From the sequence record PQ314493: a DNA stretch of 44,679 nt; one strand, given 5' to 3'. This document shows positions 2,937 through 17,782 of this stretch, piece after piece. This DNA comes from Escherichia phage vB_EcoS_UALMA_PCEc3. The position numbers were made by a program, and so were the translations under genes. Within the stretch, counting starts at the first letter, position 1, and the number at the start of each line of letters is the position of its first letter. Under the pieces are notes generated by a model. That model saw only the letters and a list, made by a program, of their open reading frames with translations. It searched no databases and was not told the DNA's origin.

Positions 2937-3038
2937 CGTCGCGTTGCTAATGTTGGCCAAAGGGTGGAGCTTATACCTCCATAAAGCAATCTCCAGATAA
3001 GAGATGTAACGCAGGTTCGATTCCTGCCGCGACGACCA
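2937..3038 (+). tRNA. atypical tRNA-like RNA (~99 nt + CCA; anticodon unresolved, candidates GAT or TAT)
   Basis: perfect 7-bp acceptor pairing cgtcgcg/cgcgacg, canonical T-arm gcagg-TTCGATT-cctgc, encoded CCA; ~25 extra nt relative to a standard tRNA. Confidence 0.35.
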
Positions 3039-3280: not shown

Positions 3281-3305
3281 AGCCCTCGCTTGAGGGCTTT
3301 TTTTC
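3281..3305 (+). terminator. rho-independent terminator
   Basis: hairpin agccctcgcttgagggct followed by T-run. Confidence 0.6.
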
Positions 3306-3347: not shown

Positions 3348-3854
3348 ATGAGCAAAGCAGCATTAAAGATGGGCGAGGGAAATTTCAAGGCGCTCTACAA
3401 CAAGAAGTATGGCGATATTGCTATGGTGGCAATCAACCGCAAGTACACACCTGAGGAAGTTTTCGATTTCGCAGTGAGATACTTCTCCTGGGCTGAGAGT
3501 GAGGCAATAAAAGCTATTGAGACGGCGGCATATCATGGCGTGGTTAGCGAGAACTTAGTGTACAAGCCGAGAGTGTTCACCCTAACGGGTTTGGCGCTCT
3601 TCATGGGTGTTAACATCAATAGATTCGCTCGCTGGCGTACTGAGGCTGGATACTCTGATGTGATGGAATTTATTGATAACGTAATCTACGAGCAAAAATA
3701 TCAACTTGGCGTTGCAGGTATCATCAACTCTACTATCGTTGGTAAAGAGCTTGGCATTGATAAGCCGCAGGAGATTAAGATTAGCAACAACTCTACAGCT
3801 AACGACGTTGATAGTATGAAGGAAGCGCTGGAGTCAGTGATTAGTAAGCTATAA
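3348..3854 (+). CDS. putative terminase small subunit
   Basis: 168-aa ORF immediately upstream of large terminase; position/size only. Confidence 0.45.
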   Translation: MSKAALKMGEGNFKALYNKKYGDIAMVAINRKYTPEEVFDFAVRYFSWAESEAIKAIETAAYHGVVSENLVYKPRVFTLTGLALFMGVNINRFARWRTEAGYSDVMEFIDNVIYEQKYQLGVAGIINSTIVGKELGIDKPQEIKISNNSTANDVDSMKEALESVISKL

Positions 3855-3963
3855 CAATAAGAGGGTATAACATGATTATTTGCACATTTCTTGGTTGGTG
3901 GATGATAACCAGGAATCTTAACGCAGGACTGCTATATATAGCTATTAATCTGGGGGTTTCTCA

Positions 3964-5529
3964 ATGTCTTTAGTATGGGAAGAAATGACCATTCAGGAAA
4001 AGATGGCTGTCAAGGCGATATCAGAACACAGCTTCGAGGGTTTCCTTCGCTGCTGGTTCCAGATCACGCAAGGCGAGCGATACATCCCCAACTGGCATCA
4101 CAAGTACTTGTGCAGAATTATCGACGAGATTATCGCAGGGGAGCGCAAAGACACCATCATTAACATAGCGCCAGGTAGCGGGAAGACGGAAATCACATCA
4201 ATCCACTTCCCCGTCTACTCGATGCTAAAGCTAAAGAAGGTTCGCAACCTTAATATCTCGTTTTCCGACTCAAACGTGAAACGCAATTCAAAGCGAGTCC
4301 GGGACCTGATATCGTCAAAGGAGTTCCAGGAGCTATGGCCTTGCAAGTTCGGAACAAATAAGGATGACGAAATTCAGATCGTCGACGACGGCGGAAAGGT
4401 TAGATTCGAGTCCATATCAGCATCAAAAGGAGGTAGAATTACCGGTACGCGTGGTGGATACATCACCGACACATACAGTGGGGCGGTAATGCTGGATGAC
4501 TTCGATAAGCCCGACGAGATGTTTTCATCTGTATACAGAGCTAAGAGTCACACGTTACTTGGGAACACAATTCGCTCACGTCGCGCAAGTTCGGTAAAAG
4601 GGAAGGCAACTCCAATTATCCAGATTCAACAGCGACTTCACGTCAATGACTCAACATGGTTCATGCTTAGCGGCGGTATGGGGATTGATTTTGATTTGGT
4701 GAAAATACCCGCACTGGTTACTGAGGATTACGTTGACACACTACCTGACTGGATTAAGCAGCAATTCATTGATGATGTGTTATCAAGCGAATACGTTGAG
4801 CGTGACGGAGTGAAGTATTACAGCTACTTTCCTGGGAAGGAGTCTGTACATGACTTAATCGCCATGTGGGATGCTGACCAATACACGTTCCTTAGTCAGT
4901 ACCAGCAGGAACCTGTAGCTCTGGGCGGTAATCTTATTAATGTGGATTGGTTCCAGCGCCTTAGTGATACATTTAGGCCCCCAGCTAAGTACGATTATAG
5001 ATTCATAACTTGCGATACTGCGATGACCACTAAAAGTTACAGCGACTTCTCAGTTCTGCAGCTATGGGGCTATAAGGATGCTAAGATTTACCTTATAGAC
5101 CAGCGCAGAGGTAAATGGGAGGCACCAGAGTTGGAAGCTGAACTACTGGACTTCGAGAGGAAATCAAGGGCAACCAGTCAGTCAGATGGCATCCTCCGTA
5201 AAATCATCATCGAGAAAAAGGCATCTGGTATCGGCCTAATTCAATCGGCAGGTAGAGTGATGCGAACACCGATAGAGCCATACGTTCCGGATAACGACAA
5301 GCTTACTCGCGTAATGAGCTCATTGCCTCAGATTAAGGCTGGCAATGTAGTTCTTCCAGAGTCATCGCCGTGGCTAAACGGATTGCTCACTGAGGTTGCG
5401 GCTTTTACGGCAGATGACTCGCATAAGCACGACGACCAAATTGACTGTCTAACAATGGCGGTAAACCTTGTACTTAACATCGCTGATGATCCTAAGGCGA
5501 GACTGATGCGCATAGCGGGAATGAAATAG
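3964..5529 (+). CDS. terminase large subunit
   Basis: 521 aa; P-loop-like NIAPGSGKTEIT near N-terminus; position before portal; TAG stop inside box copy 5. Confidence 0.8.
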   Translation: MSLVWEEMTIQEKMAVKAISEHSFEGFLRCWFQITQGERYIPNWHHKYLCRIIDEIIAGERKDTIINIAPGSGKTEITSIHFPVYSMLKLKKVRNLNISFSDSNVKRNSKRVRDLISSKEFQELWPCKFGTNKDDEIQIVDDGGKVRFESISASKGGRITGTRGGYITDTYSGAVMLDDFDKPDEMFSSVYRAKSHTLLGNTIRSRRASSVKGKATPIIQIQQRLHVNDSTWFMLSGGMGIDFDLVKIPALVTEDYVDTLPDWIKQQFIDDVLSSEYVERDGVKYYSYFPGKESVHDLIAMWDADQYTFLSQYQQEPVALGGNLINVDWFQRLSDTFRPPAKYDYRFITCDTAMTTKSYSDFSVLQLWGYKDAKIYLIDQRRGKWEAPELEAELLDFERKSRATSQSDGILRKIIIEKKASGIGLIQSAGRVMRTPIEPYVPDNDKLTRVMSSLPQIKAGNVVLPESSPWLNGLLTEVAAFTADDSHKHDDQIDCLTMAVNLVLNIADDPKARLMRIAGMK

Positions 5530-5544
5530 CACAAATTGCTAAAC
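5524..5544 (+). promoter_or_regulatory. palindromic box copy; -10 TATAGT 5564-5569
   Basis: aaatagcacaaattgctaaac; contains TAG stop of terminase large subunit. Confidence 0.6.
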
Positions 5545-5598
5545 ACTAAAGCCACGGATGGCGTATAGTTACCTCACACAAACGAGAGGAGAAGAAAG

Positions 5599-5931
5599 AT
5601 GAAGGCAGTATTTAAAGGTTATAAAAAAGCTGGTTATTTGGAATTTACTATTGGTAAGATTTATGAGTTATCAGAAACACGCGGAGTGGGTGGATATATG
5701 GGGGTGACTGATGATAGTGGCTTTCAGGCGCTATTGATCCCAGGCAACATCTATGATTTCGAGGTGTTGATCCCAGATAATTTTATCGGTAAAGAAAAGC
5801 AATTCAAATACTATATCAATGGCGAAGCTGTTTCTAAAGTCAAGTTCGATGATACGCTGTTATGCGTCAAGGAATTTAAATCTGATGGCATTGACACATC
5901 ATCAATCAAGTTCGAAGTAAAATTCGAGTAA
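5599..5931 (+). CDS. hypothetical protein (110 aa) in a moron-like unit
   Basis: own box/-10/leader cassette upstream and strong terminator downstream, inserted between terminase and portal. Confidence 0.5.
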   Translation: MKAVFKGYKKAGYLEFTIGKIYELSETRGVGGYMGVTDDSGFQALLIPGNIYDFEVLIPDNFIGKEKQFKYYINGEAVSKVKFDDTLLCVKEFKSDGIDTSSIKFEVKFE

Positions 5932-5952
5932 CCACAAAAGCTATGATAAACT

Positions 5953-5977
5953 AGCCCCCTACATGGGGCTTTTTTTA
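5953..5977 (+). terminator. rho-independent terminator
   Basis: hairpin agccccctacatggggct + T7 run. Confidence 0.65.
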
Positions 5978-5989
5978 TTGGAGAAAAAC

Positions 5990-7258
5990 ATGGTCAAGAC
6001 AGACAGCTACGCCAATATCTTTCTAGGCGGTGGTGATGGTAGTGAGATTTACGGAAGCTTACATAATCAGGCGCCTACAGTTCTGGCTTCTCTTTATGCG
6101 GATAACGCGCTGGTGCGTAGAATTATCGACACAATCCCGGAGACGGCATTGGCGGCAGGGTTCCACATTGATGGTATTGATGATGAGCCAGCATTTTGGT
6201 CGCGCTGGGACTACTTAGAGCTAACAAAACACATCAATGAAGCCTGGTCGTGGGCTAGATTGTTCGGAGGCTCTGCAATTGTTGCTATCGTTAAGGATAA
6301 TAGAGCATTAACAAGTCCGGTCAGAGAAGGTGCAGAACTTGAAACTGTTCGCGTATACGATCGTACACAAGTAAAAGTGGAGACTAGAGAAGAGAATCCA
6401 CGTAACGCACGTTTTGGTAAGCCACTGACCTATCGCATTACCACTAACGAAAGCGATATGTTCTACGACGTGCACTACAGCCGCATTCACATTATTGATG
6501 GCGAGCGAGTTCCTAACGCAATGCGTCGGCAGAATGATGGCTGGGGTCGCAGCGTTCTCTCCAGTGACATTCTTTACTCAATCAAGGATTACACCAACTG
6601 CGAAAGGCTGGCGACTCAACTGCTCAAGCGTAAACAGCAAGCGGTCTGGAAAGTCAAGGACCTGGCATTGCTTTGTGATGATAGTGAAGGAGTTGGCGCG
6701 GCTCGTTTACGTCTCGCTCAAGTTGATAACAACAGCGGAGTTGGTCAGGCAATTGGCATTGATGCGGAATCGGAAGAATACAGCATTCTGAACTCTGATA
6801 TTGGTGGGATTGATGCGTTCCTGGATAAGAAGTTCGACAGAATCGTTGCTCTGAGCGGCATCCATGAAATAATCCTGAAGAACAAGAACGTCGGCGGCTT
6901 ATCATCAAGCCAGAATACAGCGCTTGAGACATTCCATAAGCTAGTCGATCGCAAGCGTAACGCTGAGCTACTGCCGATTCTAGGGTTCCTGATTCCGTTC
7001 ATTTCAGACGAGCAAGAATGGTCAGTTGAGTTTAATCCCTTAGCTCATGAGTCAGGCAAGGATAAAGCTGAGATTCTGGAGAAGAACGTAAGCAGCATTG
7101 CGACGCTAATTGCATCTGGCGCCATGGATAAGAACGAAGCACGTGATACACTACGCACTATCGCACCAGAGATTAAGATTGGTGATAATGATATTCAGGC
7201 CGAGGAATCGGAGTTAATTACAGAGACAGAGGTTGTTAATGAAGAAATTGCGATATGA
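5990..7258 (+). CDS. portal protein (putative)
   Basis: ~420 aa ORF after terminase; track start 5963 is an ATG inside the terminator hairpin, likely true start ATG 5990 after RBS ggagaaa. Confidence 0.6.
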   Translation: MVKTDSYANIFLGGGDGSEIYGSLHNQAPTVLASLYADNALVRRIIDTIPETALAAGFHIDGIDDEPAFWSRWDYLELTKHINEAWSWARLFGGSAIVAIVKDNRALTSPVREGAELETVRVYDRTQVKVETREENPRNARFGKPLTYRITTNESDMFYDVHYSRIHIIDGERVPNAMRRQNDGWGRSVLSSDILYSIKDYTNCERLATQLLKRKQQAVWKVKDLALLCDDSEGVGAARLRLAQVDNNSGVGQAIGIDAESEEYSILNSDIGGIDAFLDKKFDRIVALSGIHEIILKNKNVGGLSSSQNTALETFHKLVDRKRNAELLPILGFLIPFISDEQEWSVEFNPLAHESGKDKAEILEKNVSSIATLIASGAMDKNEARDTLRTIAPEIKIGDNDIQAEESELITETEVVNEEIAI

Positions 7259-12590: not shown

Positions 12591-12613
12591 GCATAGCATT
12601 TTTTGCTAAAGAT
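12591..12613 (+). promoter_or_regulatory. degenerate box copy; -10 TATAGT ~12631-12636
   Basis: gcatagcattttttgctaaag. Confidence 0.45.
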
Positions 12614-12669
12614 ATTATTAAACTTTGCTGTATAGTTATCTCATCGAAACGAAATGAGAGACTAAAGAA

Positions 12670-12918
12670 ATGAATAACGCTAAAAACATCATCAAGCTTG
12701 CTGCGGTTCTGGTTGCTTTTTATGCAGTAGTTCAGATTGTCAACCCAACTGGTGAGGCTGATGCCAATAGCAAGGCAAACAAATATACTGTTGAATTTGC
12801 TAAGGCTGAGCGAGAATGTCAGGAGCTTGTAGGTGGCAAAGTTGACCAAATCATGAAATACGGCAAAGAGGTTTGTAAGGACTCGGCTGCTAAGATTGCA
12901 AAAGAAAACACTAAGTAA
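12670..12918 (+). CDS. small secreted Cys-containing protein (moron-like)
   Basis: N-terminal signal-peptide-like segment (MNNAKNIIKLAAVLVAFYAVVQIV, then ADA); own degenerate box cassette; inserted in tail module. Confidence 0.45.
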   Translation: MNNAKNIIKLAAVLVAFYAVVQIVNPTGEADANSKANKYTVEFAKAERECQELVGGKVDQIMKYGKEVCKDSAAKIAKENTK

Positions 12919-16635: not shown

Positions 16636-16986
16636 ATGGCTATTGATACATTTAATTACTGCACTCAAGTCCAAAATGGAGGCGGCTCTTTCTCTAACAC
16701 GAACAACGTGCGAATTGTTAGCTTCGGAAATGGTTACACCCAAAGGGGTACTGGTGGGTACAGGAGCAACACCAGAAGCTACCAGATGACCTACACTAAC
16801 AAGGACTGGCGCGAGGTTATGGAGTTTTGTTTCAACCACATCATTACCCCCTTCTTCTGGACTACGCCGCAGGGTGACACATCAATGTTTGTGATTCAGC
16901 AAGATAGCATTAGCGTCACACCGCTCAGTAAGGAGATTCAGACTGTAAACATGCAATTCGTAGAAGTATTTAGCTCAATGCGTTAA
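16636..16986 (+). CDS. minor tail protein (lambda gpM-like)
   Basis: 116 aa directly after tape measure. Confidence 0.5.
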   Translation: MAIDTFNYCTQVQNGGGSFSNTNNVRIVSFGNGYTQRGTGGYRSNTRSYQMTYTNKDWREVMEFCFNHIITPFFWTTPQGDTSMFVIQQDSISVTPLSKEIQTVNMQFVEVFSSMR

Positions 16987-16990
16987 ACTA

Positions 16991-17014
16991 AGCCCCTATA
17001 TGGGGCTTTTTTTG
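16991..17014 (+). terminator. rho-independent terminator
   Basis: hairpin agcccctatatggggct + T-run. Confidence 0.6.
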
Positions 17015-17026
17015 TTGGAGAAATAT

Positions 17027-17782
17027 ATGTTAAGTCCAAAGTTTGAAAATCAGTTGCAAAGCCTTTTCCCTGGCGAGATTGTGACACTTATCCAGGTTGA
17101 CGGGACCTCCTTCGGAAGTCTCGTTTACAATTTCCATAATGAGAACATTTCATACACGCCAGAAGAGATTATGCTGGCCCAAATGAATGGCGAGCCACTA
17201 CCAGAGAAGACCATCACATTCCGTGGTGAAGAGTACGGCCCAAGACCTTTTGGTATCTCGGGCATCAATATGACCTCTGACGGAAAGGCCAATAAGGTTA
17301 CACTAACAGTATCAAACGTAGACCAGCGCATTAGCTCCTTGATTAGAACATACAACGGACTTGTTAAAGCTAAGGTTACCATCTGGATTACTACGAGAGA
17401 CAACATCAATGGGGACGGAAGCATTGCTGATGGTGACTATCGCAGATTCGTTTACTTCATTGAGCGACCAAAGCAAGTTGATTACAAGACGGCATCATTT
17501 GAGCTTAACTCACCGATGGATATGGATGGCATTTACATCCCAGCGAGACTTGTTCAGTCTGTTTGCTACTTCGCTTCTCGCGGATGGTATCGAAGTGGTA
17601 ATGGTTGTGCTTATGCTGGTAATAGATATTTCAACAAGGATGATGAGCCAGTGTCAGACCCTTCATTGGATTTCTGCGCCGGAACGGTAAATAGTTGCAA
17701 GATTAGGTTTGGTGAGAATAATCAGTTGGACTTTGGTGGTTGCGCGGCAGCAAGCCTTCAGGCTAAAGCGAATCAGAGTTAA
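17027..17782 (+). CDS. minor tail protein (lambda gpL-like)
   Basis: Cys cluster near C-terminus; track start 17000 is an ATG within terminator hairpin, likely start ATG 17027. Confidence 0.55.
   Translation: MLSPKFENQLQSLFPGEIVTLIQVDGTSFGSLVYNFHNENISYTPEEIMLAQMNGEPLPEKTITFRGEEYGPRPFGISGINMTSDGKANKVTLTVSNVDQRISSLIRTYNGLVKAKVTIWITTRDNINGDGSIADGDYRRFVYFIERPKQVDYKTASFELNSPMDMDGIYIPARLVQSVCYFASRGWYRSGNGCAYAGNRYFNKDDEPVSDPSLDFCAGTVNSCKIRFGENNQLDFGGCAAASLQAKANQS

What the first reader, a model, noticed from the sequence alone, without database searches (positions are those of the whole stretch)
5524..5977. Moron-like unit between terminase and portal
A complete cassette (box copy, -10, leader, RBS), a 110-aa gene of unknown function (5599..5931) and a strong terminator (5953-5977) are inserted between the large terminase and portal genes, where siphophages usually have tight coupling. 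This is the signature of an independently expressed accessory gene.
Basis: partly seen in the sequence, partly recalled or inferred. Interest (0 to 1): 0.45.

Follow-up and report, generated by a model that had tools for sequence, protein, structure and literature searches.

The report
Mobile accessory gene cassette, T1-like phage
Between the DNA-packaging and portal genes of this T1-like phage sits a small, fast-evolving, dispensable gene with its own family-typical promoter box; it also hops to other gene junctions and other phage types, so it is an accessory ("moron-like") gene and probably not the virion part that databases call it.

Summary
The window is the 44.7-kb genome of 'Pseudomonas phage PsgS01F', a T1-like Drexlerviridae phage. 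TerL ends at 5529. A copy of the family's 21-nt box (5524-5544) overlaps its stop codon. TATAGT lies 22 nt after the TTGCTA hexamer, then GGAG, a 110-aa ORF (5599-5931) and a hairpin/T-run terminator (5953-5977).

The accessory reading is largely right:
- About two thirds of sampled relatives lack the gene cleanly, with TerL, terminator and portal directly joined.
- Alleles are 31-78% identical, against 91-96% for the flanking genes.
- The two domains reassort. GC is 37% against 47%, and dN/dS is 0.35-0.42 against 0.04-0.07.
- Paralogous box-gene-terminator cassettes sit between tail genes in two other phages.
- Homologues lie in small-gene arrays beside replication genes (context not classified by function) in rV5-like myophage and ~42-kb podophage contigs.

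Three corrections:
- The terminator is not part of the indel. Gene-less relatives and T1 keep one there.
- Terminators punctuate the whole structural block.
- The portal has no promoter of its own, so it needs read-through.

The protein is predicted as an SH3-like barrel plus a ββαβ domain. The 'virion structural protein' label (PHROG 14592) has no evidence I could find. Function is unknown; a cytoplasmic host- or defence-interaction factor is my best guess. It is a new member of a known kind and moderately interesting.

The parts
3964..5529 (+). Large terminase gene. Its stop codon TAG (5527-5529) lies inside the box.
   Evidence: Pfam Terminase_6C and PHROG 38; annotation of PP134917.1.
5524..5544 (+). 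Box: a copy of the T1-like 21-nt direct repeat aaATAGCACnnnTTGnTAAAA ('A' subtype). It contains the dyad TAGCA-N5-TGCTA, centred near -42 relative to the inferred transcription start.
   Evidence: 19 copies in the window against 0.56 expected; 20 in T1; geometry; repeat described in phage TLS (PMC11447400).
5530..5944 (+). Segment that is present or absent between relatives (box remainder + leader + gene + 3'UTR). It is flanked by ...AAATAG on the left and TGATAAACTAG-terminator on the right.
   Evidence: Junction comparison with BEK6, OzMSK, JeanPiccard, Rtp, EC3a and T1; insert lengths; GC 38.1% against 47.1% in the flanks.
5552..5563 (+). Small inverted repeat GCCAcggaTGGC between the box and the -10. 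It is largely conserved, with substitutions in some phages, across the sequenced cassettes of this slot.
   Evidence: Read directly from the sequence. Function unknown.
5564..5569 (+). -10-like hexamer TATAGT, 22 nt after TTGCTA. The inferred transcription start is around 5576.
   Evidence: TAnnnT is at this fixed distance in 14 of 19 boxes. The start site is inferred, not mapped.
5570..5598 (+). Leader with the family-typical ...CACAAACGAGAGGAG motif. Shine-Dalgarno GGAG at 5588-5591, 7 nt before the ATG.
5599..5931 (+). 110-aa gene (12.4 kDa, pI 5.2). Predicted N-terminal SH3-like beta-barrel (residues 1-57), variable linker, and conserved C-terminal beta-beta-alpha-beta domain (residues 68-110).
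5932..5952 (+). Conserved 3'UTR CCACAAAAGCTATGATAAACT. The right edge of the indel falls inside it.
5953..5977 (+). Intrinsic terminator (AGCCCC-loop-GGGGCT + T7). It is shared with gene-less relatives and acts as the TerL|portal junction terminator or attenuator.
   Evidence: MFE -12.9 kcal/mol for the folded 41-nt stretch 5940-5980; present in BEK6, JeanPiccard and OzMSK and, with a different stem, in T1.
5981..7258 (+). Portal RBS (GGAG at 5981-5984) and portal gene (ATG at 5990). No promoter lies between the terminator and the start codon, so expression needs read-through.
   Evidence: Pfam Phage_portal_3 at E = 1.4e-65; annotation; sequence.

Best explanation
The unit is a dispensable, horizontally mobile accessory-gene cassette of the kind T1-like phages use throughout their genomes.

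**How it likely works.**
- Transcription probably starts about 7 nt after TATAGT. The 21-nt box lies about 42 bp upstream of the inferred start. It probably helps host RNA polymerase, as an UP-like element or as a site for a dimeric factor.
- A leader of about 22 nt with a strong RBS gives translation of a 12-kDa soluble, acidic, two-domain protein.
- Transcripts mostly end at the hairpin/T-run at 5953-5977. This terminator belongs to the TerL|portal junction. It must leak, because the portal depends on read-through.

**What the protein most likely is.** It is most likely not a virion component. I think it is a cytoplasmic binding protein. Its conserved C-terminal domain would carry the constant function or partner. 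Its rapidly diversifying SH3-like N-domain would set target specificity. That fits a host-takeover, counter-defence or exclusion role.

**How it moves.** It probably spreads by recombination at the conserved boundary sequences. These are the box on the left and the 'TAAACTAG-hairpin-TTTTTTATTGGAGAAAA-ATG' terminator/RBS module on the right.

**Shown versus inferred.**
- Shown: the anatomy, the presence/absence polymorphism, the mosaicism, the relaxed constraint and the multiple genomic contexts.
- Inferred: promoter activity, read-through, cytoplasmic location, the role in conflict and the recombination mechanism.
For: **Presence/absence.** The indel is clean. Relatives with 82-88% nucleotide identity in the flanks have 38-56 nt between TerL and portal, against about 450-495 nt when the gene is present. 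In the spread sample, 14 records carry the gene, 29 are empty and 1 has only HNH genes.

**Divergence.**
- TerL and portal are 91-96% identical in amino acids within Braunvirinae. The 110-aa protein is 31-78% identical.
- The domains reassort. Phage 2725-N35 is 28% identical in the N-domain and 81% in the C-domain. AN_ECEAS is 61% and 49%.
- dN/dS is 0.35-0.42, against 0.04-0.07 for the neighbours. The N-domain reaches 0.8-1.0 in the closest pairs.
- The gene has the lowest GC of the structural block, 36.9% against a median of 44.3%.

**Box.** The box is of the same type that precedes small left-end genes, erf, pnk and the helicases. Only 2 of 19 boxes lie in the structural block.

**Other locations.**
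- Paralogous cassettes with a box, a terminator and an RBS lie between tail genes L|K in AugustePiccard and M|L in JulesPiccard.
- The L|K junction in this window has no terminator, so there the terminator travelled with the gene.
- Homologues P0032 and P0035 lie beside DnaB and DNA polymerase in rV5-like contigs. In L018 (P0032), T1-type boxes follow the gene. P0024 lies in an array of small genes of unknown function, between the tailspike and the primase/helicase genes, in a ~42-kb podophage contig.

**No virion link.** No significant match to any solved structure was found.

**Frameshift.** Viable phages ACG-M12, ECH1, SCS31 and phiEB49 carry a 1-nt deletion in a poly-A run that frameshifts the gene.
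Against: - No transcript, promoter or proteomic data exist for this gene. The role of the box is untested (PMC11447400).
- Every Drexlerviridae copy lies inside a structural operon (TerL|portal or the tail M|L|K junctions). That would also suit a late-expressed virion accessory protein.
- PHROG 14592 is labelled 'virion structural protein', and one depositor calls a homologue 'putative minor outer capsid protein'.
- The dN/dS values for the N-domain rest on few substitutions.
- The poly-A frameshift could be a sequencing error.
- The census is a sample of 60 of 163 matching records and includes many near-duplicates.
Confidence: 0.6

Rival explanations
1. It is a non-essential virion protein, such as a head or neck decoration or accessory protein. 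The conserved C-terminal domain would anchor it to the particle. The variable SH3-like domain would be exposed and would diversify, for example for surface adhesion.
For: - PHROG 14592 carries the label 'virion structural protein' in the 'head and packaging' category.
- All Drexlerviridae copies sit among head or tail genes.
- Decoration proteins are typically dispensable and variable. That rests on established knowledge (for example T4 Hoc) and was not tested here.
Against: - No proteomic evidence was found. The two T1-like virion proteomes I read concern phages that lack the gene, and they examined only a few gel bands.
- There is no significant match to any solved structure, virion or otherwise.
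- Homologues sit in small-gene arrays beside replication genes of unrelated myo- and podophages. Those capsids would not share a binding site.
- The box is of the type used by non-structural genes.
- The label most likely comes from the gene's position.
Confidence: 0.2
2. The cassette persists as selfish or neutral cargo. It would spread because its conserved ends recombine easily, or because it hitch-hikes with the homing endonucleases that use the same junctions. The protein would give the phage no benefit.
For: - HNH endonuclease genes occupy the same slot in RobRod40, AugustePiccard and e4/1c. One lies one gene away from the JulesPiccard tail cassette.
- The distribution is patchy.
- One lineage carries a frameshifted copy.
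Against: - Purifying selection is evident. dN/dS is 0.15-0.30 in the C-domain, and the last 8 residues are almost invariant across about 30 clusters.
- The protein has no nuclease or other mobility motif.
- Most copies occur without an adjacent HNH gene.
Confidence: 0.12
3. The important part is the promoter, not the ORF. The box/-10 element would be kept to boost transcription of the portal-protease-capsid genes downstream of a leaky terminator.
For: - The portal has no promoter of its own and needs read-through.
- The promoter region and leader are far better conserved than the coding sequence. They are nearly identical in Rtp and in this phage, while the proteins are 34% identical.
Against: - Many close relatives do without it.
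- The ORF is always intact, apart from the poly-A lineage, and it is under purifying selection.
- A terminator lies between the promoter and the portal.
- The same gene occurs elsewhere with no head genes downstream.
Confidence: 0.06

Closest known systems
Morons of lambdoid and HK97-like phages (Juhala, Hendrix and co-workers, 2000; recalled from memory)
   Same: Extra DNA lies between two genes that are adjacent in relatives. It has its own putative promoter, is followed by an intrinsic terminator, has lower GC than its neighbours, and holds a single small gene of accessory character.
   Different: The phage is virulent, so there is no prophage-state expression. At this locus the terminator predates the insert, or at least survives its absence. 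The gene family is almost confined to T1-like phages and uses that family's own box, not a foreign promoter.
21-nt direct repeats and 'transcriptons' of T1-like phages (phage TLS, PMC11447400, citing the T1 genome paper)
   Same: The consensus aaATAGCACnnnTTGnTAAAA is matched, with the same orientation as transcription. The box lies 73 nt upstream of the start codon (about 76 in TLS) and is of the 'A' subtype. The units are bounded by terminators.
   Different: That paper describes the repeats only. It does not describe this gene, its presence/absence polymorphism or the portability of the box-gene-terminator unit.
Gp54 of phage Bas11 (PDB 9axb; PMC11578894)
Lambda gene W, a small head-completion gene between terminase A and portal B (recalled from memory)
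   Same: It is a small gene in the same position between the large terminase and the portal.
   Different: W is essential and conserved in its group. This gene is absent from most sampled relatives and has a different predicted fold.

Membership tests
Moron (independent accessory transcription unit inserted in a phage operon) | Lies between two genes that are adjacent in related phages | tested here: met
   TerL and portal are 38-56 nt apart in BEK6, JeanPiccard, OzMSK, FP, DTL, TR1-3, Rogue1, AHP42, T1 and others. The gap is about 450 nt here.
Moron (independent accessory transcription unit inserted in a phage operon) | Own promoter | tested here: inconclusive
   The unit has a box plus TATAGT at the fixed family geometry. 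Promoter activity of these boxes has never been shown (PMC11447400). The generic sigma-70 score is at chance level.
Moron (independent accessory transcription unit inserted in a phage operon) | Own terminator as part of the inserted DNA | tested here: not met
   The terminator at 5953-5977 and the portal RBS are retained in gene-less relatives, so they lie outside the indel. In the paralogous AugustePiccard L|K cassette a terminator does come with the gene.
Moron (independent accessory transcription unit inserted in a phage operon) | Nucleotide composition unlike the neighbours | tested here: met
   GC is 36.9% for the gene and 38.1% for the indel, against 47.1% for TerL and portal. It is the lowest in the structural block and 8th lowest of 75 genes.
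Moron (independent accessory transcription unit inserted in a phage operon) | Expressed independently of the surrounding operon, classically from the prophage | not testable with these tools
   The phage is virulent. Transcript mapping is needed.
T1-like 21-nt direct repeat / transcripton | Matches aaATAGCACnnnTTGnTAAAA, in the direction of transcription, about 76 nt before a start codon | tested here: met
   AAATAGCACAAATTGCTAAAC is at 5524-5544, on the same strand, with ATAGCAC 73 nt before the ATG.
PHROG 14592 'virion structural protein' | Sequence match to the family profile | tested here: met
   E = 4e-35, residues 1-110 against profile positions 2-116 of 116.
PHROG 14592 'virion structural protein' | The protein is present in the virion | not testable with these tools
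   No proteomic report was found for a gene-bearing phage. No significant match to any solved structure was found. Homologues occur in non-structural contexts.
SH3-like small beta-barrel phage proteins (Gp54 Bas11 type) | Fold and sequence relationship | tested here: inconclusive
Homing endonuclease cassette | Nuclease domain (HNH, GIY-YIG or LAGLIDADG) | tested here: not met
   No Pfam, NCBIfam or PADLOC family matched. HNH genes are separate ORFs in the same slot in some relatives.
Intrinsic (rho-independent) terminator | GC-rich hairpin followed by a U-run | tested here: met
   Six-pair stem with 5 GC pairs, 6-nt loop and T7. The folded 41-nt stretch 5940-5980 has an MFE of -12.9 kcal/mol, z -3.0. 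Termination efficiency was not measured.

The most novel reading that the evidence does not exclude
T1-like phages may carry a portable 'box - gene - terminator - RBS' cassette. It would relocate between gene junctions of structural operons, and into unrelated myo- and podophages, by recombination at its conserved 21-nt box and its terminator/RBS module. Its cargo would be a two-domain protein whose SH3-like domain diversifies in an arms race. That would make it a new counter-defence factor, or a defence trigger analogous to Gp54 of Bas11, currently mislabelled as a virion protein.
Probability: 0.25. Interest if true: 0.6.

Novelty: new member of a known kind. Interest (0 to 1): 0.35.

Why it matters
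- It corrects a propagated annotation. The label 'virion structural protein' for PHROG 14592 appears to rest on position alone.
- It gives a clean natural experiment. Bas02 (JeanPiccard) lacks the gene. Bas01 and Bas03 each carry it in the TerL|portal slot plus a second, paralogous cassette among the tail genes. These closely related BASEL phages could be compared directly.
- It shows that the T1-family box, terminator and RBS modules mark the ends of exchangeable units. That is relevant to how virulent phages shuffle accessory genes.
- If the protein proves to be an anti-defence factor or a defence trigger, it would add a small, tractable family to that catalogue.

As it stands this is a well-behaved example of a known phenomenon, not a surprise.

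Tried and rejected
**Searches with no useful result**
- Pfam, NCBIfam and PADLOC gave no family.
- The PDB sequence profile gave only chance-level hits, for example fatty-acid-binding protein at E about 0.01.
- Foldseek against the PDB gave nothing below E = 0.24.
- The AFDB50 library was unavailable.
- BFVD returned only family members and generic small barrels.
- The weak tail of the representative search (P0059-P0068) consists of long repetitive proteins, such as lectin repeats, and is spurious.
- blastn of the unit against 5,426 complete E. coli genomes gave no match, so it is not a prophage or host gene.

**Literature**
- The virion proteomes of AHP24-type phages and of Rogue1 are uninformative. 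Those phages lack the gene, and only gel bands were analysed.
- The SU57, DTL and KanT1 papers say nothing about this gene.
- I found no Drexlerviridae transcriptome.
- Nothing is indexed for PsgS01F.

**Ideas rejected**
- *The 110-aa protein is the factor that binds the box.* Rejected because the box is equally abundant in T1 and in gene-less relatives.
- *The terminator is part of the insert.* Rejected on the junction comparison.
- *The generic sigma-70 match is evidence for the promoter.* Rejected because such matches occur at chance frequency.
- *The empty site can be polarised as a deletion.* The empty junction AAATAG|CCGTGATAAACTAG resembles the 3'UTR of the 2725-N35 allele (…AAAAACCGTGTGATAAACTAG). 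That hints at loss, but it cannot be decided.
Full report
**Identity of the window.** The window is the complete 44,679-bp genome of 'Pseudomonas phage PsgS01F' (PP134917.1), reverse-complemented and rotated. Across TerL-portal it is 87-88% identical in nucleotides to the E. coli phages CEB_EC3a, G8 and SU57 (Drexlerviridae, Braunvirinae; CEB_EC3a is classified in Guelphvirus). It is about 81% identical to Rtp. It is therefore a T1-like virulent siphophage.

**Observation.**
- TerL runs 3964-5529.
- The box AAATAGCACAAATTGCTAAAC is at 5524-5544, and its TAG is the TerL stop codon.
- TATAGT is at 5564-5569 and GGAG at 5588-5591.
- The ORF runs 5599-5931 (110 aa).
- The hairpin AGCCCC/GGGGCT is at 5953-5970, with T7 to 5977. 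The 41-nt stretch 5940-5980 folds at -12.9 kcal/mol.
- The portal starts at 5990 (Pfam Phage_portal_3, E = 1.4e-65).

As a generic sigma-70 promoter the site is unremarkable. It scores 9 of 12, and the scan finds 21 such sites against 21.7 expected.

The box, however, is a real and highly non-random element.
- ATAGCACNNNTTGCTAA with up to 2 mismatches occurs 19 times against 0.56 expected in the window.
- It occurs 20 times against 0.48 expected in phage T1.
- The geometry is fixed. There are exactly 22 nt from TTGCTA to a TAnnnT hexamer in 14 of 19 copies.
- Sixteen of 19 copies lie 71-89 nt upstream of a same-strand start codon.
- Several upstream genes use the box TAG as their stop codon, as TerL does.

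The element has been described. The TLS paper reports a 21-nt direct repeat, aaATAGCACnnnTTGnTAAAA, about 76 nt upstream of start codons. It is also seen in T1, Rtp and Rogue1. Its function is untested; stoperator, enhancer site and UP element were all suggested (PMC11447400).

From the spacing I infer that the dyad TAGCA-N5-TGCTA is centred near -42. That position is typical of an activator or UP-type contact.

**The gene is real but narrowly distributed.**
- It matches PHROG 14592 at E = 4e-35.
- It has no Pfam, NCBIfam or PADLOC family.
- It has 36 homologous clusters among 5.8 billion proteins.
- A profile search of 1.84 billion representatives finds only 40 proteins, and the weakest are spurious repeat proteins.

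**Synteny.** I used a query made of the last 600 nt of TerL joined to 600 nt spanning the portal RBS and the first 591 nt of the portal gene. From that I read the insert length in a spread sample of 163 matching phage records.
- *Gene present (insert about 450-495 nt):* EC3a, 2725-N35, T145P1, Rtp, IME253, ECH1, phiEB49, Sd1, AN_ECEAS, Opt-79 and Sadiya.
- *HNH endonuclease plus the gene (about 1,040 nt):* RobRod40 and AugustePiccard.
- *HNH genes only:* e4/1c.
- *Empty (38-56 nt):* FP, DTL, A110b, BEK6, TR1-3, fifteen vB_EcoS-2004V-type records, Sf12, Rogue1, phiKP26, AHP42, AHS24 and Phagiculus. T1 is also empty.

The gene is therefore dispensable in nature and patchily distributed across subfamilies. 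The refutation criterion is not met.

**Boundaries.** The junction sequences show a clean indel.
- Empty sites read ...GGAATTAAATAG|CCGTGATAAACTAGCCCC(loop)GGGGCTTTTTTATTGGAGAAAAACATG.
- Occupied sites read ...AAATAG|CAC...gene...AAAAGCTA|TGATAAACTAGCCCC....

The terminator and the portal RBS thus lie outside the indel (about 5530-5944). T1 has a different terminator at the same junction. The terminator is a feature of the TerL|portal junction, not of the insert.

Comparable terminators of about -12 kcal/mol follow at 3281, 8866, 9924, 10261, 12565 and 13590. This matches the 'transcripton' description of the T1 late region.

Only 13 nt separate the T-run from the portal ATG, and they hold no promoter. 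The terminator must therefore be leaky. This is an inference.

**Evolutionary behaviour.**
- Against Braunvirinae relatives, the TerL C-terminus and portal N-terminus are 91-96% identical. The 110-aa protein is 31-78% identical.
- The two halves reassort. 2725-N35 is 28% identical in the N-domain and 81% in the C-domain. AN_ECEAS is 61% and 49%.
- The promoter/leader, the last eight codons and the 3'UTR are nearly identical even between very different alleles. This suggests exchange by recombination at conserved ends.
- dN/dS is 0.35-0.42, against 0.04-0.07 for TerL and portal. It is 0.8-1.0 for the N-domain in the two closest pairs, based on few changes, and 0.15-0.30 for the C-domain.
- GC is 36.9%. 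That is the lowest in the structural block and groups the gene with the small left-end genes.
- ACG-M12, ECH1, SCS31 and phiEB49 carry a 1-nt deletion in an A8 run that frameshifts the gene. This is either a pseudogene or a homopolymer sequencing error.

**Other locations.**
- AugustePiccard and JulesPiccard each carry a second family member between tail genes, at L|K and M|L respectively.
- Both copies have a canonical box, TATAGT or TATATT at 22 nt, the AAACGAGAGGAG leader, and a terminator followed by ATTGGAGAAAA-ATG.
- In this window the L|K junction is 10 nt with no terminator. There the terminator and RBS travelled with the gene.
- In metagenomic contigs, four variants sit in the TerL|portal slot.
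- P0032 and P0035 lie among small genes beside DnaB and DNA polymerase in contigs related to rV5-like Vequintavirinae. In L018 (P0032), T1-type boxes directly follow the gene.
- P0024 lies in a small-gene array, between the tailspike and the primase/helicase genes, in a ~42-kb podophage contig related to vB_EcoP_P64441.
- There is no match in 5,426 complete E. coli genomes.

**The protein.**
- AlphaFold2 on a 30-sequence alignment gives pLDDT 86. It predicts an N-terminal five-stranded barrel (residues 1-57), a disordered variable linker, and a beta-beta-alpha-beta domain (68-110).
- Foldseek against the PDB gives nothing significant.
- The protein is acidic, with pI 5.2. By eye I see no signal peptide or membrane segment in the sequence; this was not tested with a prediction tool.
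- I found no evidence behind the 'virion structural protein' label. The T1-like virion proteomes I could read are from gene-less phages.

**Conclusion.** The unit is a dispensable, mobile accessory-gene cassette built from the T1 family's standard regulatory parts. Calling it 'moron-like' is fair for the insertion, the composition and the putative autonomous promoter. It is not fair for the terminator at this locus. It is also not fair to treat promoter-plus-terminator punctuation as unusual in this family.

The mechanism of expression is inferred. The biological role is unknown. The contexts outside Drexlerviridae, the box type and the pattern of diversification make a cytoplasmic host- or defence-interaction factor more likely than a virion component. 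A non-essential decoration protein is the main rival.

Noticed in passing
whole window: The record names Pseudomonas syringae pv. garcae as host. Yet the genome is 87-88% identical in nucleotides to E. coli Braunvirinae phages (EC3a, G8, SU57), and all other relatives infect E. coli or Shigella. Several 'Campylobacter phage' records (A110b, C4 and others) in the same search are also Drexlerviridae. The host assignments look doubtful, possibly through contaminating coliphage.
   Followed up: no
window 2937-3035: GenBank annotates a 99-nt 'tRNA-Ile' next to tRNA-Arg. ARAGORN finds only tRNA-Arg(tct) at 2853-2930.
   Followed up: partly
window: 258, 978, 1153, 1720, 5526, 12593, 23893(-), 24210(-), 25836, 29891, 31423, 34135, 36477, 37565, 41120(-), 41551(-), 42381(-), 43980, 44483: There are nineteen copies of the T1-family box, with a strict 22-nt gap to a -10-like hexamer. 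The dyad TAGCA-N5-TGCTA is centred near -42. The box TAG often doubles as the stop codon of the upstream gene. Several copies have a hairpin-like inverted repeat between the box and the -10, or spanning the -10 (for example GGGGTA...TACCCC at 1153 and 25836). The binding factor and function are unknown.
   Followed up: partly
window 12593-12918: The only other box in the structural block is a 'T'-type copy, ATAGCATTTTTTGCTAA. It sits just after the major-tail-protein terminator and 77 nt before an 82-aa hypothetical gene (12670-12918). This may be a second accessory cassette in the late region.
   Followed up: no
window 16985-17030 and 5945-5992: The M|L tail junction (AAACTAAGCCCCTATATGGGGCTTTTTTTGTTGGAGAAATATATG) and the TerL|portal junction (AAACTAGCCCCCTACATGGGGCTTTTTTTATTGGAGAAAAACATG) carry almost the same ~45-nt terminator+RBS module. 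This repeated junction element could serve as a recombination site.
   Followed up: partly
L008 (RobRod40) 600-1212; L009 (AugustePiccard) 600-1211; L023 (JulesPiccard) 3700-4265: HNH homing-endonuclease genes use the same junctions. Each is preceded by its own, often degenerate, box copy. The TerL|portal slot and the tail junctions are thus shared landing sites for different mobile genes.
   Followed up: partly
L017 (ACG-M12) about 1835; also ECH1, SCS31, phiEB49: A 1-nt deletion in an A8 run in the linker frameshifts the 110-aa gene in four deposited genomes, three of which have the identical length of 46,054 bp. It is either a true pseudogene or a homopolymer sequencing error copied between records.
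   Followed up: partly
window 3872-3973: An annotated 33-aa ORF lies between TerS and TerL and overlaps the TerL start. Its GC is 37%, and it may be spurious.
   Followed up: no
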